64,000 bases of DNA from a bacterium (GCA_030700025.1 JAUYKI010000010.1:16648-80647); one strand, 5' to 3'. Shown: positions 3,520 to 56,960, numbered from the stretch's first letter. Notes: a model not told the origin generated them from the sequence alone. Translations and numbers: made by a program.

Positions 3520-3592
3520 GCACCCATAGCTCAGTTGGTAGAGCAACTCCCTCTTAAGGAGATGGTCGTAGGTTCGATCCCTACTGGGTGCA
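3520..3592 (+). tRNA. tRNA-Lys(CTT), no encoded CCA
   Basis: cloverleaf: acceptor gcaccca/tgggtgc, D arm gctc/gagc, anticodon loop ctCTTaa, T arm gtagg-ttcgatc-cctac. Confidence 0.85.
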
Positions 3593-3676
3593 CACTTCGG
3601 CAGGGCTCAGCGCAAGCACTTCAACAGTTCGGCATAAGCCCAATAAAAAATTCCCTTGCGTTACGCCGGGGAATTT

Positions 3677-4423
3677 TTATTCAGGCAATAAAGTTCCGAT
3701 TAACCAAATACTAAAAATACCTAAGATCATAATTAGAATATGCGCGAATTCCCGAACGCCAGTTTTGTGGCGCAACTCCGGAATTAAATCCGAAATAGAA
3801 ATATAAATAAAAGATCCGGCGGTAATGCTAAGCACTATCGGAATATACGGCTCAAGAGCGCTCCGAAAGATATAACCTAATATCGCTCCGGCCGGCGTCA
3901 TTAAGGCCGCCGCCAAATTATATTTCAAGATTTTCCATCGAGGATATCCATTATGAAGCAAGATGCCAAAATCGCTGATTTCTTGCGGAACCTCGTGGAA
4001 AAATACCGCTACCGTAGTCGCAATGCCCGTAGGAATAGAAATTAAAAAACTTAAAGCAATAGCAATGCCATCCAAAAAATTATGCAAAGCATCGCCGATA
4101 ATAACCGTTAAGCTAAAATCATGGATGTCGCATTTTTCCTGATCGTGGCAATGATAAAAATTTAAAAGCTTTTCTAAAATATAAAAAAGTATAATGCCGG
4201 TTACAAAAGCAATAAAAATGGCTGATTCGGAAACATTCCCGGCTAAACTTTCCGGCAAAAGTTCAAAAATCGCCGCGGCCATCAAAGAGCCGGCGGCAAA
4301 ACTCAAAAGATAAATAGAAAGCCTCTTGGCTAATGCCTCATTAATAAGGAGCAGTATCCCGCCCAGCATCGCTACCACGCTTCCCACCAAGCTCGCTATT
4401 AAAATAATCAGAAAAAGCGTCAT
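3677..4423 (-). CDS. zupT: ZIP-family zinc/iron permease (ZupT-like)
   Basis: 248 aa, 8 TM helices; HEVPQEISDFGILL ZIP signature. Confidence 0.8.
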   Translation of the reverse strand: MTLFLIILIASLVGSVVAMLGGILLLINEALAKRLSIYLLSFAAGSLMAAAIFELLPESLAGNVSESAIFIAFVTGIILFYILEKLLNFYHCHDQEKCDIHDFSLTVIIGDALHNFLDGIAIALSFLISIPTGIATTVAVFFHEVPQEISDFGILLHNGYPRWKILKYNLAAALMTPAGAILGYIFRSALEPYIPIVLSITAGSFIYISISDLIPELRHKTGVREFAHILIMILGIFSIWLIGTLLPE

Positions 4424-4466
4424 TAAACCTAATTATAACGGTAAAATTCCGATTAGCAATTTTTAA

Positions 4467-4495
4467 TTGACTTTTTGTCTATTTAGGAGTAATAT
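4467..4495 (+). promoter_or_regulatory. sigma70-like promoter for the acyl-CoA dehydrogenase gene
   Basis: TTGACT - 17 nt - TAATAT; ATTCGTT-GAAAA-CGAATAC hairpin in the leader. Confidence 0.45.
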
Positions 4496-4577
4496 ATAGG
4501 CGAAGTTCCTTGAAAAAGCCGAATCATTCGTTGAAAACGAATACTCGGCCGAACAAACGGATCAGGGGAGGATAGCC

Positions 4578-6488
4578 ATGGGCATGGACGTAGGAAAGCT
4601 CGGCAAAGGACTGGCAATCGCGGAAGAACAGCGGGACAAGCGCCGGCACAACAGTTTCGTCGGCGACTGCTTTCTCGGTATAGCAAATTTTTCGCGGTTC
4701 CTGGAATGCGCGGAAGAAATTCCCGTTGAAGAACAGCGGATCGCGGACGATCTTCTCTATAATTTGAAAGGGTATCTCTGCCGAAATGTGGATCCGGAAA
4801 AAGTGGACGCAACCAATGAATTGCCCGAAGGGGTGATTGAATGGCTTTGCGAAAACGGATATTTCGGACTGAAAATTCCGCGCGAATATGGAGGCATGGG
4901 CTTGCATCAGACTGCTTATTCCCGAGTTTTGGGAGTGGCGGCCAGCTGGTCCGGCGGTTTAGCGGCTCCGCTTTCCGCGGCCAACACTATCGGCCTTAGC
5001 TATCCGATTTTAAATTACGGCGCTGAAGAACAGAAGAAAAAGTGGCTGCCGATTGTTGCCAAAGTCGTAACGGGCTTTGCCTTTACGGAAGACGAAGCTG
5101 GTTCCGATCCGGCAAACATGAAAACTACTGCCACCCGCGTCAAGGGCGGTTATCTCTTAAACGGCACGAAGTGGTGGACCACCAACGGCCCGATGAGCGA
5201 TACCAAATTCTTGTCGCCTCTGTTGTGCGTTATTGCCAAGACCGTTGATTCGCCCGATGAACTGCAGGCCAGAGCCGATGACAAGACTTACAAACCCAGT
5301 TTCAGCGCGCTGATCGTTCCGACTGACGCTCCGGGAATCCGGATTGTCCAGCGGTGCGATTTCGCCGGACTGAAAGGGATTTACAACGGCATTACGGAAT
5401 TCAAGAATGTTTTCGTTCCAGCTGATCAGCTGATCGGCAAGGAAGGACTGGGATTTCGGATCGCCATTGAAGCGCTGAACACCGGCCGGCTTTCAATTGC
5501 CAGCCTGTGCATCGCGGCGGTCAAGCAAGTTTTACTCATCGGAAATTGGTACGGCCGGAAGCGGAAGCAGTGGGCAACCAAGTCCGCTCCTTCCATCGGC
5601 TATCACGAAATGGTCGGCAGCGGATTTCTGGCAAAGGGCGCGGCTAATACTTTAGCGGCGGAAGCGATGGTTTATTTTGCCTCGCTTCGTGTTGACAACG
5701 GATTAGACGCTCGGCTGGAAGCAGCGGTTTGCAAAGTATTCTCTTCCGAACGCGGATGGGAAACCATTGATGACATGATGCAAGTCCGTGGCGGACGCGG
5801 TTATGAAACTGCGGTCTCGCTGGCTAAGCGCGGAGAACCGGCTTTGCCGTTGGAAAGAATTTGGCGCGACTTCCGGATCAACCGGATCTTTGAAGGCGCC
5901 AGTGAAATTCTTATTCTCTGGCTGTTGCGCGAAGGCAGTGATGAGTATAAAAAGCGCGGTGATGTTTTCTTCGGTCCCGGCAATTGGTGGAAAAAGTTCA
6001 CTACTGCCATGGGATTCGCCTGGGATATCCTGAGGCTGCAAAGCCGACAGCAGATTCCCGACGAAGTTTTGGACAGGATTGATCCGCGGCTCCACTCTCA
6101 TCTGTACTTCGTGGAAAAGCACATCCGCAAACTGGCCCTGTCCATGATTTTGATTTCGGCGAAGTATCGCGACAAGCTGATTCATAAACAGCTGATCTTT
6201 AAGAGGCTATTCTGGATCGCCAGCGAACTTTACGCCATGAGCGCGATTTGTTTCTATACTTCCCCGAAACGGCCCGAAGGATATGTCGTTGCCGATGACC
6301 GCAATCTGGATTTGGCCGACCTCTACTGCAAAGAGGCCCGAGCCAGAATTAAGAGCGCTCTTCAGTCGTTGAATCACAATACAGATTCGGAAGCCCGCGC
6401 GGTAGCCAAGCGGCTGCTCGCCGGCGAAGATGACGAATGGCTCAAGAGAGACATTGTCCCGATCGTTGATCATCTTGGATTAAAGTAA
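4578..6488 (+). CDS. acyl-CoA dehydrogenase family protein (long, 636 aa)
   Basis: ACAD core motifs (FAFTEDEAGSDPANMKTTA, GTKWWTTNGPMSD); C-terminal extension; higher GC than neighbours. Confidence 0.8.
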   Translation: MGMDVGKLGKGLAIAEEQRDKRRHNSFVGDCFLGIANFSRFLECAEEIPVEEQRIADDLLYNLKGYLCRNVDPEKVDATNELPEGVIEWLCENGYFGLKIPREYGGMGLHQTAYSRVLGVAASWSGGLAAPLSAANTIGLSYPILNYGAEEQKKKWLPIVAKVVTGFAFTEDEAGSDPANMKTTATRVKGGYLLNGTKWWTTNGPMSDTKFLSPLLCVIAKTVDSPDELQARADDKTYKPSFSALIVPTDAPGIRIVQRCDFAGLKGIYNGITEFKNVFVPADQLIGKEGLGFRIAIEALNTGRLSIASLCIAAVKQVLLIGNWYGRKRKQWATKSAPSIGYHEMVGSGFLAKGAANTLAAEAMVYFASLRVDNGLDARLEAAVCKVFSSERGWETIDDMMQVRGGRGYETAVSLAKRGEPALPLERIWRDFRINRIFEGASEILILWLLREGSDEYKKRGDVFFGPGNWWKKFTTAMGFAWDILRLQSRQQIPDEVLDRIDPRLHSHLYFVEKHIRKLALSMILISAKYRDKLIHKQLIFKRLFWIASELYAMSAICFYTSPKRPEGYVVADDRNLDLADLYCKEARARIKSALQSLNHNTDSEARAVAKRLLAGEDDEWLKRDIVPIVDHLGLK

Positions 6489-6492
6489 AAAA

Positions 6493-6516
6493 ATACCCCG
6501 CTAGCGGGGTTTTTAA
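6493..6516. terminator. bidirectional terminator between the ACAD gene and aceA
   Basis: ACCCCG-CTAG-CGGGGT hairpin with A/T runs on both sides. Confidence 0.6.
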
Positions 6517-7779
6517 TTATTTAAATTGATCTTTTTCAGTTGAGCCGTCCATTGCGGAAGTGGAGGTCTCACCGCCAGAGGCCGTCTGCGCTACTTCATC
6601 AAAGTAACCGGTACCGACCAATTCCTGGTGCTTCACTCCGGGATAGCCGTCTTTCTCTTTGGCGAATTCTTCCGTCTGAAGGTCCACGTACGCCGGCATT
6701 CCGCGTTTCGCGAAATCCTGCGCCAGCTTAAAAGTCGCCAGCATCAGCGCGTGGACTCCCGCCAATGTTACAAACTGGAACTTATAGCCCAGCTTGCCCA
6801 GTTCATCCTGGAAATTCGCCACTGCTTCTTGAGGCAGTTTCGTCCAGTTAAACGACGGAGACAGGTTATAGGCCAAAAGTTTTCCAGGAAATTCCTTGTG
6901 AATCGCTTCTGCAAATTGCCTCGCTTCCGCCAAATCCGGATTAGAGGTTTCATACCAAAGCAAATCCGCGTAAGGCGCGTAAGCCAAAGAGCGCGCAATC
7001 GCGCAATCCATGCCGCCGCGCATCCGGTAAAAACCTTCGGGCGTTCTTTCGCCGGTCAAAAACGGCTTATCGCGGTCATCAATATCGTTGTTCACCAGAT
7101 AAGCGCCGTGCGCGTCAGTCCTGGCAATGATAACCGTGGGAACTCCCAGAACATCCGCCGCCTCCCGCGCCGAACTCAAGGTCCAGATAAACTGGCTAGT
7201 GGAAACTAGAACTTTTCCGCCCAAATGGCCGCACTTTTTTTCCGAACCCAGCTGGTCTTCAAAATGCACTGCCGACGCGCCGGCTCTAATCATCTTCTTC
7301 ATCAATTCAAAAGTATGATCTTTACCCCCGCCAGATTCACCATCAGCCACAATCGGCGCAAACCAATCCCGCTGTTCCCGATTCTTCAAACGCTGTTTCT
7401 CATCTTCCCGCTTAAAAGCGTTGTTAATCCGCTGAACAACATCCGGAACGCTGCGCACCGAATACAAACTCATATCCGGGTAAGTTTCCAAATCGCTGTT
7501 AGCATCAGCCGCGACTTGCCAACCGCTCATGTAAATCGCTTTTTGGCCGGCCGCCACCATGGCCACTGCCATTAATCCGGTATAAGCGCCCAGCGCCTTG
7601 ATGTAAGGTTCGGTATTCAGCATGTGCCAGAATTTTTCCGCGCCTAATCGCGCCAGAGTATGTTCCACCAAAACCGTTCCGCGCAAACGCAAAACCTGTT
7701 CCGGCGCATAATTCCTCTGAACGCCGTTCCATCTCCCGCCGAAAGCCCATTCGTCCCGCAAACGCCCCGCTTCGTTCAT
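6517..7779 (-). CDS. aceA: isocitrate lyase
   Basis: 420 aa; KKCGHLGGKVLV active-site signature; full-length colinearity with AceA. Confidence 0.9.
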   Translation of the reverse strand: MNEAGRLRDEWAFGGRWNGVQRNYAPEQVLRLRGTVLVEHTLARLGAEKFWHMLNTEPYIKALGAYTGLMAVAMVAAGQKAIYMSGWQVAADANSDLETYPDMSLYSVRSVPDVVQRINNAFKREDEKQRLKNREQRDWFAPIVADGESGGGKDHTFELMKKMIRAGASAVHFEDQLGSEKKCGHLGGKVLVSTSQFIWTLSSAREAADVLGVPTVIIARTDAHGAYLVNNDIDDRDKPFLTGERTPEGFYRMRGGMDCAIARSLAYAPYADLLWYETSNPDLAEARQFAEAIHKEFPGKLLAYNLSPSFNWTKLPQEAVANFQDELGKLGYKFQFVTLAGVHALMLATFKLAQDFAKRGMPAYVDLQTEEFAKEKDGYPGVKHQELVGTGYFDEVAQTASGGETSTSAMDGSTEKDQFK

Positions 7780-7896
7780 GTCTGTCCTCCTGCCTAGAGT
7801 TTCGAAGTGCTGGGGAGAATTATAACAATAAAAATTATTCTCGTCAATAGCTTTTAAAAAATAAAAATCCCCCGACCAAAGTCAGGGGTATTTTTT

Positions 7897-9516
7897 TTAA
7901 TTATGCTTCAAATGCTCGTAAGCGGGAAGAGTCAAAAATTCAGTGAAATCTTTGCTGAAAATAATGCGCGCGAACAATTCAGTCGCTAAATCCAGCTTGC
8001 TGGCGGCGTATTTTTCCGCGCCCATTTCTTCCTGAATCTTATCAAATTCTCCACGAATCATCATAGCAACAAATTCTCCGGTAACTGTCTGGCCGTCAGC
8101 CAAAACCGCTTTATGATTCAACCACTGCCAAACTTGCGACCGGGAAATTTCTGCCGTAGCGGCATCTTCCATCAAATTGTAAAGCGGAACACAGCCAATG
8201 CCTCGCAACCAAGCCTCCAAATACTGGATGCCAACGCTGATGTTGGTGCGCAAGCCCGCTTCGGTAATTTCGCCTGAATGCGGCCTCAATAAATCAAATT
8301 CCGTAACCACTACATCTTCCCGCATAACTTCCAGCTGGTTCGGCTTATCGCCTAGAACCTCGTCAAAGGGCTGGCGCGCAATCGCGACCGTGCCCGGATG
8401 AGGAACCCAAGTGCCGTCATGGCCCGCTTCCACTTCTCTCCGCTTATCCGCCAAGATTTTTTCCGTAACCTTTTTATTGGCTTCTGGATCCTTCAAGGGA
8501 ATCTGAGCCGCCATTCCGCCCATGGCATGAGCGCCGCGCTTGTGGCAAACCTGAATCAATTTAACGCAATACGCTTTCAGGAAATCTCTGTCCATCGTCA
8601 CTTGCGCCCGGTCCGGAAGAATAAACCCCGGATGTTTCCGGAATTTCTTGATGTAGCTGAAAATATAATCCCAACGCCCGCAATTCAAACCCGCGGAATG
8701 ATTCTTCAAAGCGTAAAGAATTTCTTCCATTTCAAACGCCGCTAAAATCGTTTCAATCAAAACCGTTGCCCGGATTGTTCCCTGCGGAACACCCAATCTT
8801 CTCTGGGCAAAAACAAAGACATCATTCCAAAGCCTGGCTTCTTCGTAATTTTCCAGCTTCGGCAAATAGAAATAGGGTCCGCTTCCGCGCTCCATTAATT
8901 CTTTGGCGTTATGGAAAAAATATATTCCAAAATCAAACAGCGATGCGGACATCGGCCGGCCGTTTACCAAAATATTTTTTTCCAATAAATGCCAACCCCG
9001 AGGCCGGAACATCAGCGTGGCGATTTTGTCATTCAACTTATATTCCTTGCCAGTTTTCTCGTCCTTGAAATCAATTTGCCGGCGGACTAAGTCGTACATA
9101 TTCAATTGCCCCTGCAAAACATTGGACAAGGTCGGGCAATCGGAATCTTCCGCGTCCGCCATATAGCAATCGGCGCCGCTATTTTCCGCGTTAACCACCA
9201 TGCTCCGTTTGCTAGCCGGACCGGTAATTTCCACTTTCCGGCAGACTAAATCAGCGGGAATAGGCGCTACCCGCCAGAACTCGTCATATCGAATACTCAC
9301 GGTATCTTCACGAAAATGAGGCATTTTGCCAGCGTCAAAGCGTACTTGCTTATGCGTCCGTTCCGTTAAAAATTGTTCGCGATACATACCAAAGATACCT
9401 TGCAACTCCGCCACGAAAGCCAACGCCTCCGGACTTAAAATATGTTCAAATCTTTTCGGTTTTCCGTTGACCACTTCCCAGGTTATCATTGATTCTCTTC
9501 TCCCTTGCCCGTCCAT
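7897..9516 (-). CDS. aceB: malate synthase A
   Basis: 539 aa; LIETILAAFEMEEILYAL...HSAGLNCGRWDYIFS region typical of malate synthase A; directly upstream of aceA. Confidence 0.85.
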   Translation of the reverse strand: MDGQGRRESMITWEVVNGKPKRFEHILSPEALAFVAELQGIFGMYREQFLTERTHKQVRFDAGKMPHFREDTVSIRYDEFWRVAPIPADLVCRKVEITGPASKRSMVVNAENSGADCYMADAEDSDCPTLSNVLQGQLNMYDLVRRQIDFKDEKTGKEYKLNDKIATLMFRPRGWHLLEKNILVNGRPMSASLFDFGIYFFHNAKELMERGSGPYFYLPKLENYEEARLWNDVFVFAQRRLGVPQGTIRATVLIETILAAFEMEEILYALKNHSAGLNCGRWDYIFSYIKKFRKHPGFILPDRAQVTMDRDFLKAYCVKLIQVCHKRGAHAMGGMAAQIPLKDPEANKKVTEKILADKRREVEAGHDGTWVPHPGTVAIARQPFDEVLGDKPNQLEVMREDVVVTEFDLLRPHSGEITEAGLRTNISVGIQYLEAWLRGIGCVPLYNLMEDAATAEISRSQVWQWLNHKAVLADGQTVTGEFVAMMIRGEFDKIQEEMGAEKYAASKLDLATELFARIIFSKDFTEFLTLPAYEHLKHN

Positions 9517-9593
9517 AGCTTTACGCGAAGGAGGGCTTGCCTGTTTTCAAACAGCGTATATTAATTTAAGAGATTTCGAGCCTTAAGTCAAAT

Positions 9594-9616
9594 AAAAAAT
9601 CCGCCATAGGCGGATT
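9594..9616 (-). terminator. rho-independent terminator of clpP1
   Basis: AATCCGCC-TATG-GCGGATT hairpin plus T-run on the minus strand. Confidence 0.65.
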
Positions 9617-9643
9617 CACTTTCACAAAAGTGAGAAGCGGGGC

Positions 9644-10276
9644 TTACAGAGATTTAGTCGTAGCAACAATTTCGTCAATCACTCCATATTCTTTGGCTTC
9701 TTCGGGACTCAAGAAAAAGTCGCGATCTGCGTCCTTCGTGATTTTTTCCAGCGACTGGCCAGTGTGCAAAGCTAAAATTTCCATCAGTTTCGTCTTACTT
9801 TTCCCGATTTCCGCGGCCTGAATTTGAATATCTGAAGCTTGGCCCTGAACGCCACCAAGCGGCTGATGAAGAAGTATCCGGGAATTCGGCAAAGATTTTC
9901 TCATTCCCTTAGTTCCCGCCGCTAACAGCACTGCTCCCATAGAAGCCGCCTGTCCAACGCAAATAGTGGAAATTGGAGCATTTACAAAACGCATAGTGTC
10001 ATAAATGGCCAAGCCCGCAGTAACTACTCCGCCCGGACTGTTAATAAAAATCTTGATCGGCTTTTCCTGATCCTCATTATTCAATTGCAGCAACTGAGCC
10101 ACAATCAAATTCGCCGCCATGTCATAAATTGGATAACCGATAACAATGATTCTGTCCTTAAAAAGACGGGAATAAATATCGTAAACCCGTTCCGTTCGGC
10201 CAATGCGCTCAATTACCATCGGCATCGGAATCGAAAACGGTTCCGGCCCCTGGTCAGCTCTCAGATCTCCTTTCAT
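9644..10276 (-). CDS. clpP: ATP-dependent Clp protease proteolytic subunit (copy 1)
   Basis: 210 aa; [14 protein letters not shown] active-site Ser region, His/Asp triad context. Confidence 0.9.
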
Positions 10277-10381
10277 GATTTCCTCCTTAGCTATTTCACA
10301 GAACTGCCTTGAGTTTATAAGATTTCCGGAAAATCGTCAACTCTCAATAAAAAGGCGCCCAATGCCCGGAGCGCCTTAATT

Positions 10382-10455
10382 TGGAGCGGGATACCGGAAT
10401 CGAACCGGCGCCATTACCTTGGCAAGGTAGCGTACTGCCACTATACTAATCCCGC
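10382..10455 (-). tRNA. tRNA-Gly(GCC) with encoded CCA
   Basis: reverse complement folds as a cloverleaf: acceptor gcgggat/atcccgc, anticodon loop ttGCCaa, T arm gccgg-ttcgatt-ccggt, 3' CCA. Confidence 0.8.
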
Positions 10456-10504: not shown

Positions 10505-11008
10505 TTAAGCTAAGAAAACTATTTTTTTGATTTGTTCAATTACGTCTTGATCGCCGGCGTCCGAAAAACTAATAGTCTGATGCGCGTAGGTTTGGTAAAG
10601 GTAATGCCTTTCCGTAAATAATCCTTCTAATCCCCAGCGCGCTAAACCGATAATCCCCCGCTCCAAAGGCTTGGGTCCCAAACGCTTTTTAACTTCTTCC
10701 AGCGGCAAATCCAAATAAAAAATTTGAGTTTCGGATTTTAATTTATTCATTGCCCGCGTGGAATAAATAATACTGCCGCCCGGAGCAAAAACCGTTTCCG
10801 CCAAATTCAAATCCAAAGACAATTCTTCTTCCAGTTCTAAAAATGCGGTGTCGCCGTTTTTGCCGATAAATTCCGCCGGCGCCAGGCCGGTTTTTTCTTG
10901 GATTAAAATATCCAGGTCCAGAAACTTCCAGCCCAAGCTATCGGCTAATTTTTTGCCGATAGTAGATTTTCCGGCGCCGGGCATGCCGATTAGGGTTATT
11001 CCCTTCAT
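10505..11008 (-). CDS. aroK: shikimate kinase
   Basis: 167 aa; GMPGAGKSTIGKKLA P-loop; start codon preceded by the TAGTATATTAGCATTTC motif. Confidence 0.8.
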   Translation of the reverse strand: MKGITLIGMPGAGKSTIGKKLADSLGWKFLDLDILIQEKTGLAPAEFIGKNGDTAFLELEEELSLDLNLAETVFAPGGSIIYSTRAMNKLKSETQIFYLDLPLEEVKKRLGPKPLERGIIGLARWGLEGLFTERHYLYQTYAHQTISFSDAGDQDVIEQIKKIVFLA

Positions 11009-12342: not shown

Positions 12343-12939
12343 TTATTTCTTCCCCGTCTTGATAATCTCGTCCACTACTCCATAATCTTTAGCTTCCGCG
12401 GCGGTTAAATGAAAATCTCGGTCGGTATCTCGTTCTATTTTAGCCAGCGGCTGACCGGTATGCTTAGCCAAAATTTGGCTTAACCGCTCCTTAATCCGCA
12501 AGATATGCTTGGCGGCAATTTCAATTTCCACCGCCTGGCCTTCCGCCCCGCCCATTACCTGGTGAAGCAAAATTTCCGCGTTCGGCAAAGCCACCCGCTT
12601 TCCTTTTTTTCCGGACGCCAAAAGCACCGCGCCCATAGAAGCCGCCATGCCCACGCAAATCGTGGAAACGTCCGGCTTGATATATTGCATAGTATCGTAA
12701 ATCGCCATGCCAGCGGTTACCGAACCGCCCGGAGAATTAATATAAAGCTTGATATCCCTTTTCGGATCTTCGTGTTCCAAAAATAAAAGCTGGGCAATTA
12801 CCGTATTGGCAACGCCATCGCTAATCGGGCCCGACAAAAAAACAATCCGTTCTTTTAAAAGACGCGAATAAATATCATAAGCCCGCTCGCCATTTTGGGT
12901 TTTTTCTATAACCGTAGGGATAAGGTATTCGTTTTCCAT
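12343..12939 (-). CDS. clpP: ATP-dependent Clp protease proteolytic subunit (copy 2)
   Basis: 198 aa; [14 protein letters not shown]; its ATG lies inside the inverted repeat of element E2. Confidence 0.9.
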
Positions 12940-26748: not shown

Positions 26749-28584
26749 ATGCAGACTTTTTATAAAAGCATCCTTTGGGCTACTTTAGTTTTATTTTTGC
26801 TTTCGCTGGCTTTTTCTTTTCTTTTTGACACTCAAGCTAAGCCGGAAGTTCTTAGCCTTAACCAACTAACCGCCAGAATCAACTCCGGCGAGATAACTAA
26901 AATCACCGTTCAAGGCGATAATCTTAAAATTTCCCTGAAAGACGGAAAAGAAGCCGTTGCTCAAAAAGAAACAGAATCCGGTTTAAGCGAAACTCTGAAA
27001 AATTACGGCGTAAAAACTGACGCCCTGAATCAAGTGGCGATAGAAATCCAAGACGAATCCGGTTTTCAATTTTGGATGGGCATTCTTCTGCCGACGCTTC
27101 TGCCATTAATCGCCATGGTGGTTATTTTCTGGTTTATTTTCCGGCAGGCAAAAACCGGCGCTAACCAGGCTTTTACTTTCGGCCGTTCCAGTCTCCGGCT
27201 TTATGGTAATTTTAAAGACCGTCCAACCTTTAAAGACGTAGCCGGCCTGAAAGAAGCCAAACACGAATTGGAAGAGGTGGTGGATTTCCTGAAAAATCCA
27301 AAAAAGTTTTTGGACATGGGCGCCCGTATTCCGCGCGGAGTTTTATTGATGGGCTCGCCAGGCACCGGAAAAACTTTATTAGCAAGATCCGTAGCCGGTG
27401 AAAGCGGAGTTCCATTCTTTTTCATTTCCGCTTCAGAATTCGTAGAAATGTTCGTGGGTGTTGGCGCTTCCCGAACCCGCGATGCTTTTGCCACCGCCAA
27501 AAAAGCCGCTCCTTCTATCTTATTTATTGACGAGATTGACGCGATTGGCCGGGAACGCGGCGCCGGAGTGGGAGGCGGACACGACGAACGGGAACAAACC
27601 CTAAACCAAATCTTAGTGGAAATGGACGGCTTTGAACGGGACAATAATGTAATAGTTTTAGCCGCTACCAACCGGCCGGATATTTTGGACCGGGCTCTTT
27701 TGCGGCCAGGCCGTTTTGACCGCAGAGTTTGGCTGGACTTGCCGGACATCAACGACCGCGAGGCGATTTTAAAACTCCACGCGAAAGACAAACCATTAGC
27801 CAAAAATACCGATTTGCGGCAAATCGCGATCCGCACGCCTGGATTTTCCGGAGCGGATTTAGCCAACTTAATGAATGAATCGGCGATTTTAGCCGCCCAT
27901 CATAACCGAAAAGAAGTTATTCAAAATGATCTTTATGATTCCATTGAAAAAGTAATGCTCGGCCCCCAAAGAAAGGGGCGGGCTATCAGTCAAAAAGAAA
28001 AAGAAATTACCGCCTATCACGAAGCCGGCCACGCCTTGGTCGCTGCCAGCTTAAAAGACGCTGATCCGGTGCATAAAATTTCTATAATCAGCCGCGGCCG
28101 GGCCGGCGGTTACACTTTAAAATTGCCGTTGGAAGAACAACGGTTGCGGACTCGTTCCCAATTTTTAGCGGAAGTAGCAGTGGCCCTGGGCGGTTACGTG
28201 GCTGAGCAAGAAATTTTCGGGGAAATGAGCACCGGCGCATCCAGTGATTTACGCGAAGCTTCCAAAGTTACCCGGGCGCTAGTAACCCAATTCGGCATGA
28301 GCGAAGCTATCGGCCCGCAAACTTTCGGCGAATCGCACGATCTTATGTTTTTAGGAAAAGAAATTACCAGCGAACGGAATTATTCCGAAGCCACCGCGGA
28401 TAAAATTGACATAGAAGTAAAAAAATTCACTGAACGCTCTTATACGGCGGCAAAAAAAATAATTTCTTCCCGCCGGCAAATATTAAAAGCGGTTGCCCAA
28501 GCCCTGATAGAAAAAGAAGAATTGGAAAAAGAAGCTTTTGACAAAATTATCAGCAGTTTTAAACTAAAGCCGTTGTCGATTTAG
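26749..28584 (+). CDS. ftsH: ATP-dependent zinc metalloprotease FtsH
   Basis: 611 aa; N-terminal TM helices, AAA Walker A GSPGTGKT, HEAGHALVA zinc site. Confidence 0.9.
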   Translation: MQTFYKSILWATLVLFLLSLAFSFLFDTQAKPEVLSLNQLTARINSGEITKITVQGDNLKISLKDGKEAVAQKETESGLSETLKNYGVKTDALNQVAIEIQDESGFQFWMGILLPTLLPLIAMVVIFWFIFRQAKTGANQAFTFGRSSLRLYGNFKDRPTFKDVAGLKEAKHELEEVVDFLKNPKKFLDMGARIPRGVLLMGSPGTGKTLLARSVAGESGVPFFFISASEFVEMFVGVGASRTRDAFATAKKAAPSILFIDEIDAIGRERGAGVGGGHDEREQTLNQILVEMDGFERDNNVIVLAATNRPDILDRALLRPGRFDRRVWLDLPDINDREAILKLHAKDKPLAKNTDLRQIAIRTPGFSGADLANLMNESAILAAHHNRKEVIQNDLYDSIEKVMLGPQRKGRAISQKEKEITAYHEAGHALVAASLKDADPVHKISIISRGRAGGYTLKLPLEEQRLRTRSQFLAEVAVALGGYVAEQEIFGEMSTGASSDLREASKVTRALVTQFGMSEAIGPQTFGESHDLMFLGKEITSERNYSEATADKIDIEVKKFTERSYTAAKKIISSRRQILKAVAQALIEKEELEKEAFDKIISSFKLKPLSI

Positions 28585-28656
28585 GGCATATAGCTCAATG
28601 GTTAGAGTACCGAGCTTATACCTCGGCGGTTCTTGGTTCGAATCCAAGTATGCCCA
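28584..28656 (+). tRNA. tRNA-Ile(TAT) candidate, no encoded CCA
   Basis: acceptor gggcata/tatgccc; D arm gctc-aatggtta-gagt; anticodon arm ccgag-ctTATac-ctcgg (perfect); T arm cttgg-ttcgaat-ccaag; starts at the last base of the ftsH stop codon. Confidence 0.7.
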
Positions 28657-28682
28657 CCCTTAAAAAGAAAAAACACCAGCAG

Positions 28683-28712
28683 GGATTTTTATAAGAAAAA
28701 ACCCTGCTATAA
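28683..28712. terminator. bidirectional terminator
   Basis: AACCCTGCT-ATAA-AGCAGGGTT hairpin with A/T runs on both sides. Confidence 0.6.
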
Positions 28713-29438
28713 AGCAGGGTTGAAACGCTTGCAACTTTCAATAAAGGTCTGAATCTCATCCCGGTTGGGAAACTGGACGCCGCGCTCCAGCAGAACCTGG
28801 AAAGCCCTCGGCAAATAGAAGAACTTGTGCGAGTGGTACATGGTCGTCGCCCGCTCCACATCTTCCTTATTTTCCTCGGCTTCCTTGTCGCTCATCCGGA
28901 AATTTTCAGGGGAAACCCATTCGGTTTCCTTGATTTCCTGGCTTTCCCTTTTGAGCCGACCAGCCTCCACCTTCAGCGTACGGCAAACCACCAGTTTGTG
29001 CATCCGGTCGGGCGACGGAAACTCCGACACCACTTCCGGCCAAATCAGCAAACCAGTTTCTTCCAGCTCTTCCCGAATCGCGGTCAAAAGAATTTTTACG
29101 GTTTCGGAATTCGGATCCCAATCCTGAACCAGGCCAGGATTCAGCTTCCGCTCTCCCTCGTAATTTCCCGAAAACCACTTCCGGAAATCGAAGATTCTCT
29201 GAATCTTGGGGATGCCTTCGTCCAACACCTGGCCGACTTGCGCCCAGGTAATGTCCGAGCCCTTGCTCTGAAGCCGGGCGATCAAATTTTCCATATCCAT
29301 CAGCGCTTCTTCCAGAGTCTTCTCGCCGGAAACCGGCTTAGTCTCCATGTAACGCTCGTGAACCAGAAGCACCCGCCCCTCTTCGTCCATGGTCAAATTC
29401 TTGACCGTAATGCTCGGCTTGTTTGGAAATTCCATCCG
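28707..29438 (-). CDS. Nudix-family hydrolase
   Basis: Nudix box TAIREELEETGLLI (REx2EExG); likely start at MEFPNK (29438); the longer TTG-start ORF runs into element E3. Confidence 0.65.
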   Translation of the reverse strand, partial: RMEFPNKPSITVKNLTMDEEGRVLLVHERYMETKPVSGEKTLEEALMDMENLIARLQSKGSDITWAQVGQVLDEGIPKIQRIFDFRKWFSGNYEGERKLNPGLVQDWDPNSETVKILLTAIREELEETGLLIWPEVVSEFPSPDRMHKLVVCRTLKVEAGRLKRESQEIKETEWVSPENFRMSDKEAEENKEDVERATTMYHSHKFFYLPRAFQVLLERGVQFPNRDEIQTFIESCKRFNPAL

Positions 29439-29606
29439 GCCGCCGCTCAATCCCCAGCCCTCGCGCTTACTGGAAAGCTGTCTCACGGTTAAATCCTCCC
29501 TTGCCCGTCCGTAGTCTCGCGAAGCGAGACGTAGGCGGGTTTGAATTTTCAAGCTGGCTATTCCCAGCACTGGTGGCAGGATACCATAAAAATAAATCTT
29601 TGTCAA

Positions 29607-34274: not shown

Positions 34275-34404
34275 CCCTCACCCTTGAAGGGCCTAACGCG
34301 TTTCCGCGTTTTTGTTTCAAGATTAATTTAAGATTAAGCTCAATCGACATTTTAAATAATAAACTAATTATGGGCAATCTCACAGCCCTTCCAAGGTGAG
34401 GGAT
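34273..34404. repeat. family B paired inverted repeat F2
   Basis: ATCCCTCACCCTTG...CAAGGTGAGGGAT flank 105 bp of AT-rich sequence; abuts the xerC stop. Confidence 0.6.
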
Positions 34405-35300
34405 TAATTTCGTCTACGGCCGTGAAATGCCCTATGGACTTCCCGCAATTCTTTATTAGTTAAATGAGTGTAAACCTGGGTGGTGGCAATATTGCTGTGG
34501 CCAAGCATTTCCTGCACCGCCCGCAAATCCGCGCCGTTTACCAGCAAATCCGTGGCAAACTGGTGGCGGAGCTGATGCGGAGTAATTTTTTTGGTAATGC
34601 CCGCTTTCCGCCGGTAAAACTCCACCAGGCGCTGAACCGAGCGCGGAGTAATTTTTCCGATAATTTTCGGATTTGGCCCCTTTGATAAACTAACGAACAT
34701 GACTCCTTCGGCATCACCGCGTTTCGCCAGATAATTTTTCAAAGCGGTTCGGGCGCGATCCGAAATAAACACTATCCGCAATTTTTCGCCCTTGCCCCGG
34801 ACCGTAATTTCTCCGCGGTCCAAATTAAGATAACGGTCTAATTTGCAAAGCTCCGAAAGCCGGAGTCCGGTAGAAAATAAAGTTTCTAAAATCGCTTTGT
34901 CCCGCAAGCCCCGCAAATTATCTGTTTTGGGAGAATTTAAAAATCTTTCCAAATCCGCGTATTCCACAATTTCAATCTGCCGGCGGGGAATTTTCGGAAG
35001 TTCAATTTTATCCGGCGACAAAACTTCGTAATCTTTTTTAATCAGATATTTTAAAAAGTTCCGGATAGCAATTACGTAAAAAGACTGGGTAATTCTTTTT
35101 AACGGCTTGCCGCGCGCCAACTGAAGGCGGAATTGAATGACTTTTTCCGCGGTAATTTCTTCCGGCTTTTTAACTTTTGCGAAAGCTAAAAACGCCTTTA
35201 AATAACGCTCATAATTTTCCCGGGTTTTAATAGAGCGGTTTTTTTCCACTTCTAAATAATCCAGATAGTTTTGCAAAGCATCTTGAACGCTAGCCATGCC
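34404..35300 (-). CDS. xerC: tyrosine recombinase XerC/XerD family
   Basis: C-terminal R..HxxR..Y catalytic region (RHQFATDLL...LGHSNIATTQVYTHL); ORF extends to 35393 but MASVQD is the likely start. Confidence 0.85.
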   Translation of the reverse strand, partial: GMASVQDALQNYLDYLEVEKNRSIKTRENYERYLKAFLAFAKVKKPEEITAEKVIQFRLQLARGKPLKRITQSFYVIAIRNFLKYLIKKDYEVLSPDKIELPKIPRRQIEIVEYADLERFLNSPKTDNLRGLRDKAILETLFSTGLRLSELCKLDRYLNLDRGEITVRGKGEKLRIVFISDRARTALKNYLAKRGDAEGVMFVSLSKGPNPKIIGKITPRSVQRLVEFYRRKAGITKKITPHQLRHQFATDLLVNGADLRAVQEMLGHSNIATTQVYTHLTNKELREVHRAFHGRRRN

Positions 35301-35341
35301 TTTATTATAACCTGTCGCACAATATTTTTTAACCACGCAAA

Positions 35342-35478
35342 ATCCCTCACTTTTGAAGCACCGAAACGTCCAGGCGATTTCCTTAGAGGACACTAATCAT
35401 TTACAAGTAGGGTCTGGAGTTAGAAAACAACGTAGTAAGACAAACGCTTAAAAATCGCAGCGCTTCAAGAGTGAGGGA
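35342..35478. repeat. family B paired inverted repeat F3
   Basis: ATCCCTCACTTTTGAAGC...GCTTCAAGAGTGAGGGA, 17-bp arms. Confidence 0.6.
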
Positions 35479-43854: not shown

Positions 43855-44190
43855 TTATTTATTTTTACAGTCCTTGCAAAAGCGGGACTCCGGATTTACC
43901 CGCAGAACCTCCATCGAAATTTCCATGCTGCACTTCTCACATTTACCATAATTTCCCCGGACAATTTTTTCTATCGCGTTTTCTACGTCGCCCAGCCGTT
44001 CCTTTAAAGCTTGCTGAACACCCAACTGCAATCCTTCTTCTTCAGCTTCGTCCGCTTCTTCTTCAAATACTCCGCCTTCCGTGTCACTGCCAAAATCCGG
44101 AGACTTTTTGGCGTCTTTTATTTCCACCTCCAGCTCACCAGCGGTTTTTTCTAATTGTTCTTTTAAATCTTGTAATATTTTTGAGTCCAT
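43855..44190 (-). CDS. DksA/TraR-family C4 zinc-finger protein
   Basis: CEKCSMEIS...CKDCKNK C4 finger after an acidic coiled-coil. Confidence 0.7.
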   Translation of the reverse strand: MDSKILQDLKEQLEKTAGELEVEIKDAKKSPDFGSDTEGGVFEEEADEAEEEGLQLGVQQALKERLGDVENAIEKIVRGNYGKCEKCSMEISMEVLRVNPESRFCKDCKNK

Positions 44191-44307
44191 AAATAAAATG
44201 TTACTACACCTGCTCGATTTAGCAAGCCACTTTACAAATAAATAGCTTCGTGGTACAATACGCGCAGTTCTCTAAAACTGAATTAAAACTGTCTGAAGGA
44301 GGCAACC

Positions 44308-44934
44308 ATGGCCCAGCGATTCTATCCGCTTTTGGAAGAAGCTCTGGAAGTTGGTTTGGAAACAACGGTTCTCGCCGAAGACGCAAATGGCATCAGCTTG
44401 CCGGAGGGATTTCTGGTTCGGAATCCCAATGACCGGGGAAATAAGCCAAACGCGAAAACTGTTTCTCTGACCCATCCAGGTACGGTGATCCATCACGTTC
44501 CGAACGTAATGGCCGAACTGCTAATTCCGACAACCGAAGCCCAAATTTTGCGGGTAATTCATTTCCATCACATTCCTCCGGGAATCAAAATCCAATTTCA
44601 AAGATTAAATTTCCGGCAGTCGCCGAATCGCGACTTCACGGGATTGATTTGCGGAAGATCCGGAGAAGCGCAAGCTTTTCCAATCCGCCAGCGGGATAAC
44701 AGTCCCTATGCGAATCTGGATTTCTTTTCCAAAACTAAAGAATGGAATCCGCTTTTCGTGAAATACCGGCGGCAAACGCCGCTTAAAGACGCGGAGTTCG
44801 GTTATTTGGAAATTCAGGCGGGAAGAATTCCGCCGAAAATGAAAAATACCGAGGATTCGTATGTCATTGTGGCGCGAGTCCCGGAATCTGCGGTTCCGGA
44901 ATTTCTGCGAACGGCTCAAACTTTTCCAAAATAA
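44308..44934 (+). CDS. hypothetical protein (208 aa)
   Basis: GGAGG RBS; terminator hairpin 44945-44984. Confidence 0.5.
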   Translation: MAQRFYPLLEEALEVGLETTVLAEDANGISLPEGFLVRNPNDRGNKPNAKTVSLTHPGTVIHHVPNVMAELLIPTTEAQILRVIHFHHIPPGIKIQFQRLNFRQSPNRDFTGLICGRSGEAQAFPIRQRDNSPYANLDFFSKTKEWNPLFVKYRRQTPLKDAEFGYLEIQAGRIPPKMKNTEDSYVIVARVPESAVPEFLRTAQTFPK

Positions 44935-44985
44935 TTCTGGATGGTGTCCCACGCCAAACTCATTCTTATTTGTTTGGCGTGGGGC

Positions 44986-45014
44986 TTGACAACGGCTTCG
45001 TTCTATGGTAGTAT
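44986..45014 (+). promoter_or_regulatory. sigma70-like promoter
   Basis: TTGACA - 17 nt - TAGTAT upstream of the 45101 gene. Confidence 0.4.
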
Positions 45015-45100
45015 TTACCATAGACCTTTGAAGCTGGGGAATCCGAAAGGAAACCCCAAAACCAAGCCCCTGTGGGCAATTCCCAAGGAGGACAACGACC

Positions 45101-45871
45101 ATGGAACGATTGACGCCGGAACAGAAGGATCAGAAGTACGGACCGGTCGCGCAGCTGTGCATCGCGGCGTGCCGGGCGCACGGAGAGATCCACAAGGCCA
45201 ACGGCAAGAACAAGGAGAAGCCGGGAACGGTTTCTCCCGAGACGATTCAGGAGCTGGTGACCGGGGCCCGGGCGGCTGACGAAGCCATTCGGAACGCCAC
45301 GGCCAGCTACACGCAGGACGACATTCGGCTGATGGCTGCCTACCTCGAGCAGGCGGTGGTGCGCGTTGCGCTCACCCCCGGCGAGAGCGGCGGACTGACG
45401 TTCGATGTCGGCGTGGCTCGCGGGGTGGTGAATGCCATCCAGAGCCTGCGCCACATGCCTGGGGTGGCGGAGAACTTCGTTCGCTACCACCTCCAGCGGA
45501 CTGGGACGTTCCTGGATCTGTGCGACGTGACCGGTTCCGTGCCGAAGTACGGCATGAACACCGCGAGCGTTCGCTACAGTCTGGAACGGCTCGCCAGCAA
45601 GATCGCCGAGGCTCGCAAGAGCTACGAGACGGCCAAGACTGAGGGTCGGCTTCTCGAGGCGGGAAACCTGGGTGTCGCGGTCGCGAATCTGAACGGGCTC
45701 AACAGCCGGGCCAGCTCGCTCTTCGAGCGGTGGCTCACTGAGCGGCAGCCGGCCACGGCCAACGCTTCCATCGGGGAGCAGGTCGGACCGGAAGTGCAGT
45801 CGGCGGTGGCGGTGGCGGAGACGACTCCGACGCCCGCTCCGGCACGGCGGCCCGCGCGTTCGCGTCGGTAA
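45101..45871 (+). CDS. hypothetical protein, GC-rich (about 62% GC), basic C-terminal tail
   Basis: AAGGAGG RBS 11 nt upstream; composition far from the window background. Confidence 0.5.
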   Translation: MERLTPEQKDQKYGPVAQLCIAACRAHGEIHKANGKNKEKPGTVSPETIQELVTGARAADEAIRNATASYTQDDIRLMAAYLEQAVVRVALTPGESGGLTFDVGVARGVVNAIQSLRHMPGVAENFVRYHLQRTGTFLDLCDVTGSVPKYGMNTASVRYSLERLASKIAEARKSYETAKTEGRLLEAGNLGVAVANLNGLNSRASSLFERWLTERQPATANASIGEQVGPEVQSAVAVAETTPTPAPARRPARSRR

Positions 45872-45962
45872 TCCTTCGGTCATCTCAGGCCGAGGGCAGT
45901 AACTGAGTTCCGGGAGCTCACACATTCGAAAGAATGTGTGAGCCCCGGGCTCACATTTTTTT

Positions 45963-56491: not shown

Positions 56492-56509
56492 CGTAATACC
56501 AATATACAA

Positions 56510-56920: not shown

Positions 56921-56960
56921 TTAGTATTATTAGTATGAATTAGTATATTAGCATTACATT

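What the first reader, a model, noticed from the sequence alone, without database searches (positions are those of the whole stretch)
4467..9616. Glyoxylate-shunt pair (malate synthase A, isocitrate lyase) plus a long acyl-CoA dehydrogenase form a higher-GC block in an otherwise reduced, CPR-like gene set
aceB and aceA are full length with intact catalytic signatures (KKCGH in the lyase, HSAGLNCGRWDYIFS in the synthase). They sit as an aceB-aceA operon convergent with a 636-aa ACAD driven by a textbook TTGACT-17-TAATAT promoter. Local GC (about 52-57%) exceeds that of flanking zupT, clpP and recG (about 38-47%). If the host is really a minimal-metabolism CPR-type organism, a fatty-acid/acetate assimilation module would be unexpected and suggests horizontal acquisition. 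A near-palindrome CTGTTTGAAAACAG sits in the aceB upstream region, a possible IclR-type operator.
Basis: partly seen in the sequence, partly recalled or inferred. Interest (0 to 1): 0.7.

Follow-up and report, generated by a model that had tools for sequence, protein, structure and literature searches.

The report
Glyoxylate-shunt and acyl-CoA dehydrogenase genes in CPR
A tiny-genome "candidate phyla radiation" bacterium carries intact genes for isocitrate lyase, malate synthase and a long acyl-CoA dehydrogenase, and relatives share them at the same chromosomal spot, so this is an old, inherited metabolic add-on of one lineage and not a fresh foreign insertion or an assembly error.

Summary
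The three genes are real, full length and keep their catalytic motifs. They are ACAD 4578-6488 (+), aceA 6517-7779 (-) and aceB 7897-9489 (-). The aceB start is 9489, not 9516. The host is a CPR/Patescibacteria bacterium near Ca. Harrisonbacteria, so "CPR-like" holds.

The GC claim is overstated. ACAD and aceA are 52.5% GC and aceB 47.8%, against 44.7% for the window. Only ACAD and aceA are compositional outliers.

The recent-transfer reading is not supported:
- An identical second assembly spans both junctions.
- Two relatives from other samples keep the same backbone. One has ACAD-aceA-aceB and one has ACAD only.
- AceA, AceB and ACAD each form lineage-specific clades with 92-100% NJ bootstrap.
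- The same GC excess recurs in every relative, whatever its genome GC.
- There is no integrase or att repeat.

Sister lineages carry a conserved thiolase-FadB-ACAD operon.

aceB and aceA are probably not one operon. A terminator and a near-consensus promoter, both conserved in a relative, lie between them. The palindrome is at chance level and is not conserved.

Most likely this is an anciently acquired, vertically kept fatty-acyl-CoA/acetyl-CoA assimilation module. Its metabolic completeness (ETF, citrate synthase, aconitase) could not be tested.

The parts
3520..3593 (+). tRNA-Lys(CUU), left backbone marker
   Evidence: ARAGORN and Rfam. The same tRNA sits between recG and ACAD in relative L005.
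3677..4423 (-). ZIP-family metal transporter ('zupT'-like), left flank
   Evidence: PF02535. The NF003243 ZupT model scores only 65 bits against a cut-off of 252. GC is 40.2%.
4467..4495 (+). promoter-like site TTGACT-17-TAATAT upstream of ACAD
   Evidence: It matches 9 of 12 positions and is not significant on its own. Its position, 83 nt upstream of the ATG in the intergenic spacer, fits a promoter.
4526..4542 (+). 7+7 inverted repeat ATTCGTT-GAA-AACGAAT in the ACAD leader
   Evidence: It shares the core TTGAAAAC with the aceB leader palindrome. That 8-mer occurs at chance frequency in the window.
4578..6488 (+). VLCAD/ACAD9-like acyl-CoA dehydrogenase, 636 aa
   Evidence: Pfam Acyl-CoA_dh_N, _M and _1 plus PF21343. 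The best PDB matches are human ACAD9 and VLCAD over residues 47-612, E about 1e-55. The FEG catalytic-Glu motif is invariant in the 24-sequence clade alignment. NCBI lists it as MDP3999391.1.
6495..6510 (.). bidirectional intrinsic-terminator hairpin ACCCCGCTAGCGGGGT between the convergent ACAD and aceA
   Evidence: One search reports it on both strands, with an A-run and a T-run on either side.
6517..7779 (-). isocitrate lyase AceA, 420 aa
   Evidence: NF011645 scores 646 bits against a cut-off of 562. It aligns end to end with PDB 7cmx, and KKCGH is present. NCBI lists it as MDP3999392.1.
7819..7847 (-). aceA promoter TTGACG-17-(TG)TATAAT
   Evidence: It is the best match in the region at 11 of 12. 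Nearly the same sequence lies upstream of aceA in L003.
7869..7888 (-). terminator-like hairpin just after the aceB stop codon
   Evidence: An equivalent hairpin lies after aceB in L003.
7897..9489 (-). malate synthase A AceB, 530 aa (start 9489, not 9516)
   Evidence: TIGR01344 scores 759 bits against a cut-off of 594.5. The best PDB match is 3cux. The motifs RPRGWH, GLNCGRWDY and EDAATAEI are present. The start follows NCBI MDP3999393.1 and the Logan gene call, and agrees with the L003 alignment.
9541..9554 (.). 6+6 palindrome CTGTTT-GA-AAACAG in the aceB leader
   Evidence: It is not conserved in L003. Several palindromes of this size occur in every spacer.
9563..9591 (-). promoter-like site TTGACT-17-TAAATT upstream of aceB
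   Evidence: 9 of 12. L003 has TTGACT-17-TATACT at the equivalent place.
9597..9617 (-). intrinsic terminator of the upstream clpP
   Evidence: An equivalent hairpin exists in L003.
9644..10276 (-). ClpP paralogue, right flank
   Evidence: NF001368 scores 301 bits. It is also adjacent to the block in L003 and L005.
10382..10455 (-). tRNA-Gly(GCC), right backbone marker
   Evidence: The same tRNA sits at the equivalent place in L005.

Best explanation
The block is a stable, lineage-specific metabolic module of a subgroup of Paceibacteria-type CPR bacteria related to Ca. Harrisonbacteria. It is not a recent island.

It consists of three separately transcribed genes: a VLCAD/ACAD9-like acyl-CoA dehydrogenase, isocitrate lyase and malate synthase A.

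The ACAD belongs to a clade-specific family. In sister lineages this family sits in a conserved AAA_28-thiolase-FadB-ACAD beta-oxidation operon. In the window's sub-lineage it lies between recG/tRNA-Lys and clpP/tRNA-Gly. There, aceA and aceB lie between it and clpP.

Inferred function: fatty acyl-CoA, probably from scavenged host or environmental lipid, is oxidised towards acetyl-CoA. Isocitrate lyase makes glyoxylate and succinate. Malate synthase condenses glyoxylate with acetyl-CoA to give malate. The cell thereby gains C4 acids for biosynthesis.

Shown: gene integrity, CPR host, conserved synteny, lineage-specific clades, conserved promoter and terminator layout, and a gene-specific GC excess that recurs in relatives.

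Inferred: an ancient acquisition from non-CPR bacteria, the direction of flux, and the lipid source.
For: - Enzyme identity and motifs.
- CPR host.
- No chimera: the Logan contig L001 equals window 3548-10409 with 0 mismatches of 6862 and spans both junctions.
- Synteny with L003: nusA-PPase-tig-clpP-ACAD-aceA-aceB-clpP.
- Synteny with L005: recG-tRNA-Lys-ACAD-clpP-clpP-tRNA-Gly-SKI-tyrS, without aceAB.
- Divergence between window and L003 is similar for block and flank proteins. ACAD is 61%, AceA 65% and AceB 67% identical. Tig is 60%, PPase 74%, NusA 84% and ClpP 89%.
- NJ bootstrap supports the clades. The AceA lineage clade gets 92%, the ACAD clade 100% and the AceB pair window+L003 99.5%.
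- The thiolase-FadB-ACAD operon occurs in five loci with conserved alr-serS-aspS-greA context.
- GC and GC3 excess of these genes over their own flanks occurs in all seven genomes, whose locus GC ranges from 44 to 55%.
- In the window, the GC excess is split between amino-acid composition and codon choice.
- The aceA promoter and the terminators are conserved in L003.
Against: - Only 64 kb of the genome was visible. No acyl-CoA synthetase, thiolase, FadB, ETF, citrate synthase, aconitase or malate dehydrogenase is encoded in the window or in the 10 kb beyond its right end. A working pathway is therefore not demonstrated.
- CPR bacteria normally lack quinones and respiratory chains, so the electron acceptor of the ACAD is unknown.
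- L005 keeps the ACAD without aceAB, so the three genes are not an obligatory unit.
- The CPR identity of the thiolase-FadB-ACAD loci is inferred from the ACAD tree and gene content only. No taxonomic names could be obtained.
- The trees are neighbour-joining on limited samples.
Confidence: 0.62

Rival explanations
1. The block is a recently acquired genomic island from a higher-GC donor, inserted into a minimal CPR genome.
For: - ACAD and aceA are about 8 GC points above the window mean and are tetranucleotide outliers with z 2.1-2.6.
- Their synonymous codon choice is GC-shifted, with z 3.5 and 2.1.
- The block lies between two tRNA genes.
- No named CPR protein appears among the closest AceA homologues.
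Against: - The same tRNA-bounded backbone, with the ACAD, is present in L005. The full three-gene block is present in L003. Protein divergence there is as deep as for the housekeeping flanks.
- All three proteins form lineage-specific clades.
- No close non-CPR donor exists. The best are at most 66% for AceA and at most 39% for ACAD.
- The GC excess recurs in relatives whose backgrounds range from 44 to 55%.
- No integrase lies within 25 kb and there are no att-like repeats.
- aceB is not a compositional outlier.
Confidence: 0.05
2. The block results from mis-assembly or mis-binning. The metabolic genes would belong to another organism and were joined to CPR sequence.
For: - The source is a metagenome-assembled genome labelled only 'bacterium'.
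- Composition shifts at the block.
Against: - A separate Logan assembly of run SRR13727534 gives an identical 6.9-kb contig running from the ZIP gene through ACAD, aceA and aceB into clpP.
- Independent samples give the same adjacency to CPR housekeeping genes. These are JGI 3300054704, SRR35626463 and GCA_040961635.1.
Confidence: 0.02
3. The genes are genuine and inherited, but they do not run a canonical beta-oxidation plus glyoxylate cycle. There are two variants:
- The ACAD, with thiolase and FadB in sister lineages, works reductively as an enoyl-CoA reductase in a butyrate-type fermentation.
- ICL and MS act as an open, host-dependent shunt or as a glyoxylate sink. Imported isocitrate or glyoxylate would be converted to malate and succinate without a TCA cycle.
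For: - CPR bacteria are generally fermentative and lack respiratory chains. The published CPR case was itself discussed as a possible butyrate producer (PMC5220378).
- No ETF, citrate synthase or aconitase is seen in the sequence available.
- L005 has the ACAD without aceAB.
- The three genes are separate transcription units.
Against: - The ACAD is of the long-chain VLCAD/ACAD9 type with the extra C-terminal domain. It is not the butyryl-CoA dehydrogenase type that pairs with bifurcating EtfAB.
- ICL and MS next to an ACAD is the classical fatty-acid assimilation combination. This point rests on established pathway knowledge, not on a test made here.
Confidence: 0.28

Closest known systems
Escherichia coli aceBAK glyoxylate-shunt operon (IclR/FadR-regulated)
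   Same: It has the same two enzymes, malate synthase A and isocitrate lyase, in the same order (aceB then aceA) on one strand. Both window proteins pass the NCBIfam equivalog cut-offs. The physiological link to fatty-acid and acetate use is also shared.
   Different: - No aceK and no IclR-family gene was found among the ORFs scanned in the window.
- A terminator and an independent, conserved promoter lie between aceB and aceA, so they are probably monocistronic.
- The neighbour is an ACAD.
- The host is a CPR bacterium.
Beta-oxidation cluster of Ca. Parcunitrobacter nitroensis (Parcubacteria; Castelle et al. 2017, PMC5220378)
   Same: It is a CPR/Parcubacteria genome with co-located acyl-CoA dehydrogenase, hydratase/dehydrogenase and thiolase genes. 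Their sequences are divergent from non-CPR organisms.
   Different: - There the ACADs are of the glutaryl-CoA and short/branched-chain types and sit with ETF genes. No isocitrate lyase or malate synthase is reported.
- Here the ACAD is VLCAD/ACAD9-like at 636 aa. No ETF is adjacent in any of the loci examined. ICL and MS are attached.
Mitochondrial VLCAD / ACAD9 and their roughly 630-aa bacterial homologues (Pfam PF21343-containing ACADs)
   Same: It has the same four-domain architecture. It aligns end to end with ACAD9 and VLCAD structures (8phe, 8ca1, 3b96). The catalytic FEG glutamate is present.
   Different: - Identity to the nearest non-CPR bacterial homologues (Thermoanaerobaculia and others) is only about 39%.
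- It forms a separate clade with 100% support.
- It stays far below every NCBIfam FadE cut-off, with 166 bits against 600.
Bacillus-type ICL (PDB 7cmx) and malate synthase A (PDB 3cux, labelled here only 'Malate synthase')
   Same: These are the best solved-structure matches over the full length, and the active-site motifs are conserved.
   Different: The window's proteins group with the other CPR-context copies and not with these.

Membership tests
Isocitrate lyase (NCBIfam NF011645 / TIGR01346) | Full-length match above the curated cut-off | tested here: met
   NF011645 scores 646.2 bits against a cut-off of 562, over residues 3-419 of 420. TIGR01346 scores 514.9 against 275.9.
Isocitrate lyase (NCBIfam NF011645 / TIGR01346) | Active-site loop KKCGH (methylisocitrate lyases carry KRCGH; this distinction is from general knowledge) | tested here: met
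   KKCGH sits at residues 181-185. It is also present in all four other lineage copies. The PrpB models score only 81 bits against 354.
Malate synthase A (TIGR01344) | Full-length match above the curated cut-off, and not malate synthase G | tested here: met
   TIGR01344 scores 759.3 bits against a cut-off of 594.5. The malate synthase G models score 23-33 bits.
Malate synthase A (TIGR01344) | Conserved catalytic and Mg-binding motifs (Arg in RPRGWH, Glu in LIET, Asp in GRWDY, Asp in EDAATAE; the residue roles are recalled from the E. coli and B. anthracis structures) | tested here: met
   All the motifs are present in the window and in L003. The assignment of roles rests on memory and was not tested here.
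Acyl-CoA dehydrogenase, VLCAD/ACAD9-like subfamily | N, middle and C ACAD domains plus the extra C-terminal domain PF21343 | tested here: met
   Precomputed Pfam hits. The alignment to ACAD9 and VLCAD covers residues 47-612.
Acyl-CoA dehydrogenase, VLCAD/ACAD9-like subfamily | Catalytic glutamate in the (I/T)FEG motif | tested here: met
   F438, E439 and G440 are invariant in 24 clade members. The sequence is RIFEGASE at residue 436.
Bacterial FadE equivalogs (NF058590, NF038187, NF007000) | Score above the curated cut-off | tested here: not met
   The best score is 165.7 bits against a cut-off of 600. The protein is an ACAD but not a member of the named FadE equivalog families.
aceBAK-type glyoxylate operon | aceB and aceA co-transcribed, with aceK downstream | tested here: not met
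   A terminator-like hairpin (7888-7869) and an 11-of-12 promoter (7847-7819) lie between them, and both are conserved in L003. The gene downstream of aceA is the convergent ACAD, so there is no aceK. The transcription units are predicted, not measured.
IclR-type regulation | An IclR-family regulator gene and a conserved operator palindrome upstream of aceB | tested here: not met
   None of the window ORFs scanned matched an IclR-family model. The palindrome at 9541-9554 is absent in L003. A regulator encoded elsewhere in the genome was not testable.
Recently integrated genomic island | An integrase or mobility gene, flanking direct repeats at a tRNA, and absence from close relatives | tested here: not met
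   The only recombinase lies at 34.4-35.4 kb. There are no flanking repeats of more than 21 nt, and none match a tRNA end. The block or its ACAD is present at the same tRNA-Lys/tRNA-Gly-bounded site in relatives.
Complete glyoxylate cycle / beta-oxidation pathway | Citrate synthase, aconitase, MDH, acyl-CoA synthetase, thiolase, hydratase/dehydrogenase and ETF in the same genome | not testable with these tools
   Only the 64-kb window and 10 kb beyond its right end were readable, and none of these genes is there. The rest of the MAG could not be fetched.
Candidate Phyla Radiation / Patescibacteria (host) | Housekeeping proteins closest to CPR lineages, and CPR-typical gene content | tested here: met
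   All but one of the named PNPase relatives at 59-71% identity are Ca. Harrisonbacteria, Wolfebacteria, Paceibacterota, 'Patescibacteria group' or unclassified 'bacterium'. The exception is one 'Spirochaetota bacterium' MAG. A PrgI plus VirB4-like cluster, a short YidC and many family-less ORFs are present. No rRNA or concatenated-marker phylogeny was possible.

The most novel reading that the evidence does not exclude
A family-level subgroup of Paceibacteria (CPR) has kept, over long evolutionary time, a working lipid-to-C4 route. It would consist of a clade-specific thiolase-FadB-VLCAD-like ACAD set plus, in one branch, isocitrate lyase and malate synthase.

These ultra-small bacteria would then burn or assimilate fatty acids, perhaps stripped from host membranes. 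They would also need an electron outlet for a flavoprotein dehydrogenase. Both points run against the picture of CPR as purely sugar- or amino-acid-fermenting symbionts with no fatty-acid metabolism.
Probability: 0.4. Interest if true: 0.7.

Novelty: new member of a known kind. Interest (0 to 1): 0.5.

Why it matters
CPR/Patescibacteria are described as lacking the TCA cycle, respiration and fatty-acid metabolism. How they obtain and turn over lipids is an open question.

A conserved, lineage-specific set of beta-oxidation and glyoxylate-bypass genes marks a sub-lineage with a broader carbon metabolism. It also gives concrete targets:
- three well-assayable enzymes;
- a defined clade;
- a sequencing run (SRR13727534) whose assembly carries the block.

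These could be used to test whether some CPR bacteria use host or environmental lipids.

The case also shows that a local GC excess is not evidence of recent transfer. The excess here is a persistent property of these genes across genomes of different GC.

Tried and rejected
- **Genome-contig scan with the ACAD.** It returned only a 27%-identical Thermodesulfobacteriota ACAD. The source MAG and its close relatives were not recovered from that collection.
- **Metagenome-contig scan with the 24-sequence ACAD clade alignment.** The two patterns chosen were too general.
- **Fetching the rest of the 113,948-bp contig.** The RecG look-up found nothing. The YidC look-up gave only a Logan contig carrying rnpA-dnaA-dnaN-PBP-ruvC, with no metabolic genes.
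- **Getting taxonomic names for the thiolase-FadB-ACAD loci.** Exact-sequence look-ups of 20 proteins gave only '[bacterium]' or no name.
- **AceB search against 50%-identity representatives.** It gave only a plateau at 57% or below. It served as an outgroup set for the tree but carried no names or contexts.
- **Shared operator idea.** TTGAAAAC-centred palindromes occur in the ACAD and aceB leaders. The 8-mer occurs 5 times in the window against 5.9 expected, and the palindromes are not conserved in L003. This stays a weak lead only.
- **dN/dS.** It was not attempted. The only DNA-level relatives are at 57-67% protein identity, where synonymous sites are saturated.
- **Literature.** No report was found of an ICL plus MS pair assigned to a CPR genome. 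One paper mentions ICL without MS in pooled groundwater CPR MAGs (PMC12114108).

Full report
**What is in the sequence**

Between a tRNA-Lys (3520-3593) and a tRNA-Gly (10382-10455), the window encodes these genes in order:
- a ZIP-family transporter (3677-4423, -);
- a 636-aa acyl-CoA dehydrogenase (4578-6488, +);
- isocitrate lyase (6517-7779, -);
- malate synthase A (7897-9489, -);
- a ClpP paralogue (9644-10276, -).

Isocitrate lyase and malate synthase A both pass NCBIfam's curated equivalog cut-offs, with 646 against 562 bits and 759 against 594.5 bits. They align end to end with solved structures (7cmx, 3cux).

The ACAD has the three canonical domains plus the ACAD9/VLCAD C-terminal domain PF21343. 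Its best solved relatives are human ACAD9 and VLCAD over residues 47-612. It stays far below every FadE equivalog cut-off.

The aceB start is 9489 (530 aa). NCBI (MDP3999393.1) and Logan call it there, and the alignment with a relative supports it. The ATG at 9516 is not conserved.

**Composition**

The window is 44.7% GC. ACAD is 52.6%, aceA 52.4% and aceB 47.8%. The flanking genes are 40-47%.

In 2-kb windows, only 4.5-7.5 kb is a tetranucleotide outlier (z 2.1-2.6). A much stronger outlier lies at 44-47.5 kb (z up to 4.9).

I split the excess into an amino-acid part and a codon-choice part:

| Gene | From amino-acid composition | From codon choice |
|---|---|---|
| ACAD | 3.1 points | 4.6 points (z 3.5) |
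| aceA | 4.9 points | 2.7 points (z 2.1) |
| aceB | within noise | within noise |

**Host**

The source is a 113,948-bp contig of an NCBI MAG labelled only 'bacterium'. Its PNPase has an unnamed 85% relative. Nearly all named relatives at 59-71% identity are Ca. Harrisonbacteria, Wolfebacteria, Paceibacterota or 'Patescibacteria group'. The window also holds a PrgI/VirB4-like cluster, a short YidC and many ORFs with no family match. 'CPR-like' is therefore correct.

**Assembly**

A Logan assembly of run SRR13727534 contains a 6,862-bp contig identical to window 3548-10409, with 0 mismatches. It runs from the ZIP gene to clpP across both junctions. Independent samples show the same adjacency (see below). 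A chimera is very unlikely.

**Relatives**

AceA has one 70% relative and otherwise a flat 63-66% plateau. The named members of that plateau are Armatimonadota, Bacillota and Obscuribacterales.

The ACAD has a graded series of relatives at 94, 60, 59 and so on down to 41% identity. A sharp break then leads to the nearest other bacteria at about 39%.

Contexts of the graded series:
- **L003** (JGI 3300054704): nusA-PPase-tig-clpP-ACAD-aceA-aceB-clpP.
- **L005** (GCA_040961635.1): recG-tRNA-Lys-HIT-ACAD-clpP-clpP-tRNA-Gly-SKI-tyrS. This is the window's backbone without aceAB, and only 49 bp separate ACAD and clpP.
- **L006, L008, L009, L010 and L092**: a conserved AAA_28-thiolase-FadB-ACAD operon beside alr-serS-aspS-greA.
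- **L093** (Hainich groundwater, sample label '01um') and **L094**: the ACAD alone.

Between window and L003 the block proteins are 61-67% identical. This lies within the range of the flanking housekeeping proteins, 60-89%.

Neighbour-joining bootstraps:

| Clade | Support |
|---|---|
| AceA {window, P0133, L003, P0134, P0141} | 92% |
| Whole ACAD clade | 100% |
| ACAD, window+L003 subgroup | 100% |
| ACAD, operon-linked subgroup | 100% |
| AceB, window+L003 | 99.5% |

An AceA (P0134) and an ACAD of the L005 subgroup (P0256) both come from Logan contigs of 4,633 bp. This suggests, but does not prove, that aceA is also linked to the ACAD in that subgroup and that L005 lost it.

**GC again**

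In every relative, the ACAD, thiolase, FadB or ace genes exceed their own flanks by about 4-8 GC points and 5-15 GC3 points. This holds although the loci range from 44 to 55% GC. These genes have diverged to about 50% protein identity. A donor's synonymous-site signature could not persist in parallel across them. The excess is therefore a maintained, gene-specific property and says nothing about recent transfer. No integrase lies within 25 kb and no att-like repeats flank the block.

**Transcription layout**

The consensus scan finds this layout on the minus strand:
- a terminator after clpP (9617-9597);
- a promoter-like site for aceB (9591-9563);
- a terminator-like hairpin right after aceB (7888-7869);
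- the best promoter match of the region in front of aceA (7847-7819, TTGACG-17-TATAAT with an upstream TG, 11 of 12).

A bidirectional hairpin (6495-6510) lies between aceA and the convergent ACAD.

L003 has the same layout, and its aceA promoter is nearly identical in sequence. The three genes therefore look like three transcription units and not an aceBA operon.

The palindrome CTGTTT-GA-AAACAG (9541-9554) exists. It is one of several 6-nt inverted repeats per spacer and is not conserved in L003. It shares the core TTGAAAAC with a 7+7 inverted repeat in the ACAD leader (4526-4542). That 8-mer occurs at chance frequency in the window. No IclR-family gene was found among the ORFs scanned.

**Interpretation**

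The evidence fits an old acquisition, or a series of acquisitions, by one Paceibacteria sub-lineage, followed by vertical inheritance.
- The ACAD is part of a lineage-specific beta-oxidation gene set.
- In the window's branch it sits next to isocitrate lyase and malate synthase.
- The natural reading is assimilation of acetyl-CoA derived from fatty acyl-CoA into malate and succinate.

This is inferred, not shown. The readable sequence holds no acyl-CoA synthetase, thiolase, FadB, ETF, citrate synthase, aconitase or MDH. The rest of the genome could not be fetched. An open, host-fed shunt or a reductive role for the ACAD therefore remains a serious alternative.

**Literature**

- A survey of freshwater CPR found no beta-oxidation in any group (PMC9166423).
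- Ca. Parcunitrobacter is the reported exception. It uses short-chain and glutaryl-type ACADs with ETF and has no glyoxylate enzymes (PMC5220378).
- One paper lists ICL without MS in pooled groundwater CPR MAGs (PMC12114108).
- I found no description of an ICL plus MS pair or of a VLCAD-like ACAD clade in CPR. The library searched is incomplete.

**Verdict**

- The HGT-island interpretation is wrong in its recent form.
- What remains is a moderately interesting, apparently undescribed distribution of ordinary enzymes: a conserved lipid/acetyl-CoA assimilation module in a CPR sub-lineage.

Noticed in passing
window 28584-28658 (+): ARAGORN calls a tRNA-Ile with anticodon UAU. Most bacteria instead read AUA with a lysidine-modified CAU tRNA made by TilS. 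This may say something about decoding in this lineage.
   Followed up: no
window 44000-47500: This is the strongest compositional outlier of the window, with GC up to 62.6% and tetranucleotide z up to 4.9. The ORF at 45101-45871 (+, 256 aa) has no Pfam match. The longer antisense ORF at 44966-45925 looks spurious because it is Arg/Pro-rich.
   Followed up: partly
window 28707-29606 (-): A 299-aa ORF with GC3 of 64.7% and no family match sits directly beside the tRNA-Ile(UAU). It is another local GC outlier.
   Followed up: no
L006 6493-12013; L008 5334-11959; L009 5263-12082; L010 5267-11986; L092 3012-9639: A conserved thiolase - FadB (ECH+3HCDH) - VLCAD-like ACAD operon, preceded by an AAA_28 gene in four of the five loci (not called in L006), lies beside alr-serS-aspS-greA in five CPR-looking contigs from different samples. 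No ETF genes are adjacent.
   Followed up: partly
window 4526-4542 and 9541-9554: The ACAD and aceB leaders each carry an inverted repeat centred on the same 8-mer, TTGAAAAC. The 8-mer is at chance frequency in the window and the repeats are not conserved in L003.
   Followed up: yes
window 9510-9535 (-) and L003 14770-14800 (-): The aceB leaders of the window and of L003 share the stretch GCCCTCCT, which is complementary to a Shine-Dalgarno sequence. It lies upstream of a purine-rich ribosome-binding site. It could be a translational control element.
   Followed up: no
window 9644-10276 and 12343-12939 (-): There are two ClpP paralogues downstream of trigger factor and no clpX in the window. 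L003 and L005 have the same pair.
   Followed up: partly
window 56003-59324 (+): A PrgI-family protein, a PD-(D/E)XK nuclease and a 787-aa VirB4/TraG-like ATPase sit within a run of ORFs that have no family match. This is a type IV secretion-like cluster.
   Followed up: no
window 62442-63638 and L011 (beyond the right end): Jag/R3H and YidC are followed, just outside the window, by rnpA, dnaA and dnaN. Cumulative GC skew falls across the whole window to a minimum near 62-63 kb. The replication origin is therefore close to the right end.
   Followed up: partly
window 10505-11008 (-): A shikimate-kinase-fold protein scores best against the 'homoserine kinase, Desulfo type' model NF040667, with 131 bits against a cut-off of 197. 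It scores lower against the AroK and AroL models.
   Followed up: no
proteins P0384, P0388, P0401: Some malate synthase A representatives are 970-1060 aa long. These may be fusions with another enzyme, perhaps isocitrate lyase.
   Followed up: no
window 34404-35393 (-): A tyrosine recombinase (phage-integrase family, XerC/D-like) lies here. It is 25 kb from the block and unrelated to it.
   Followed up: no
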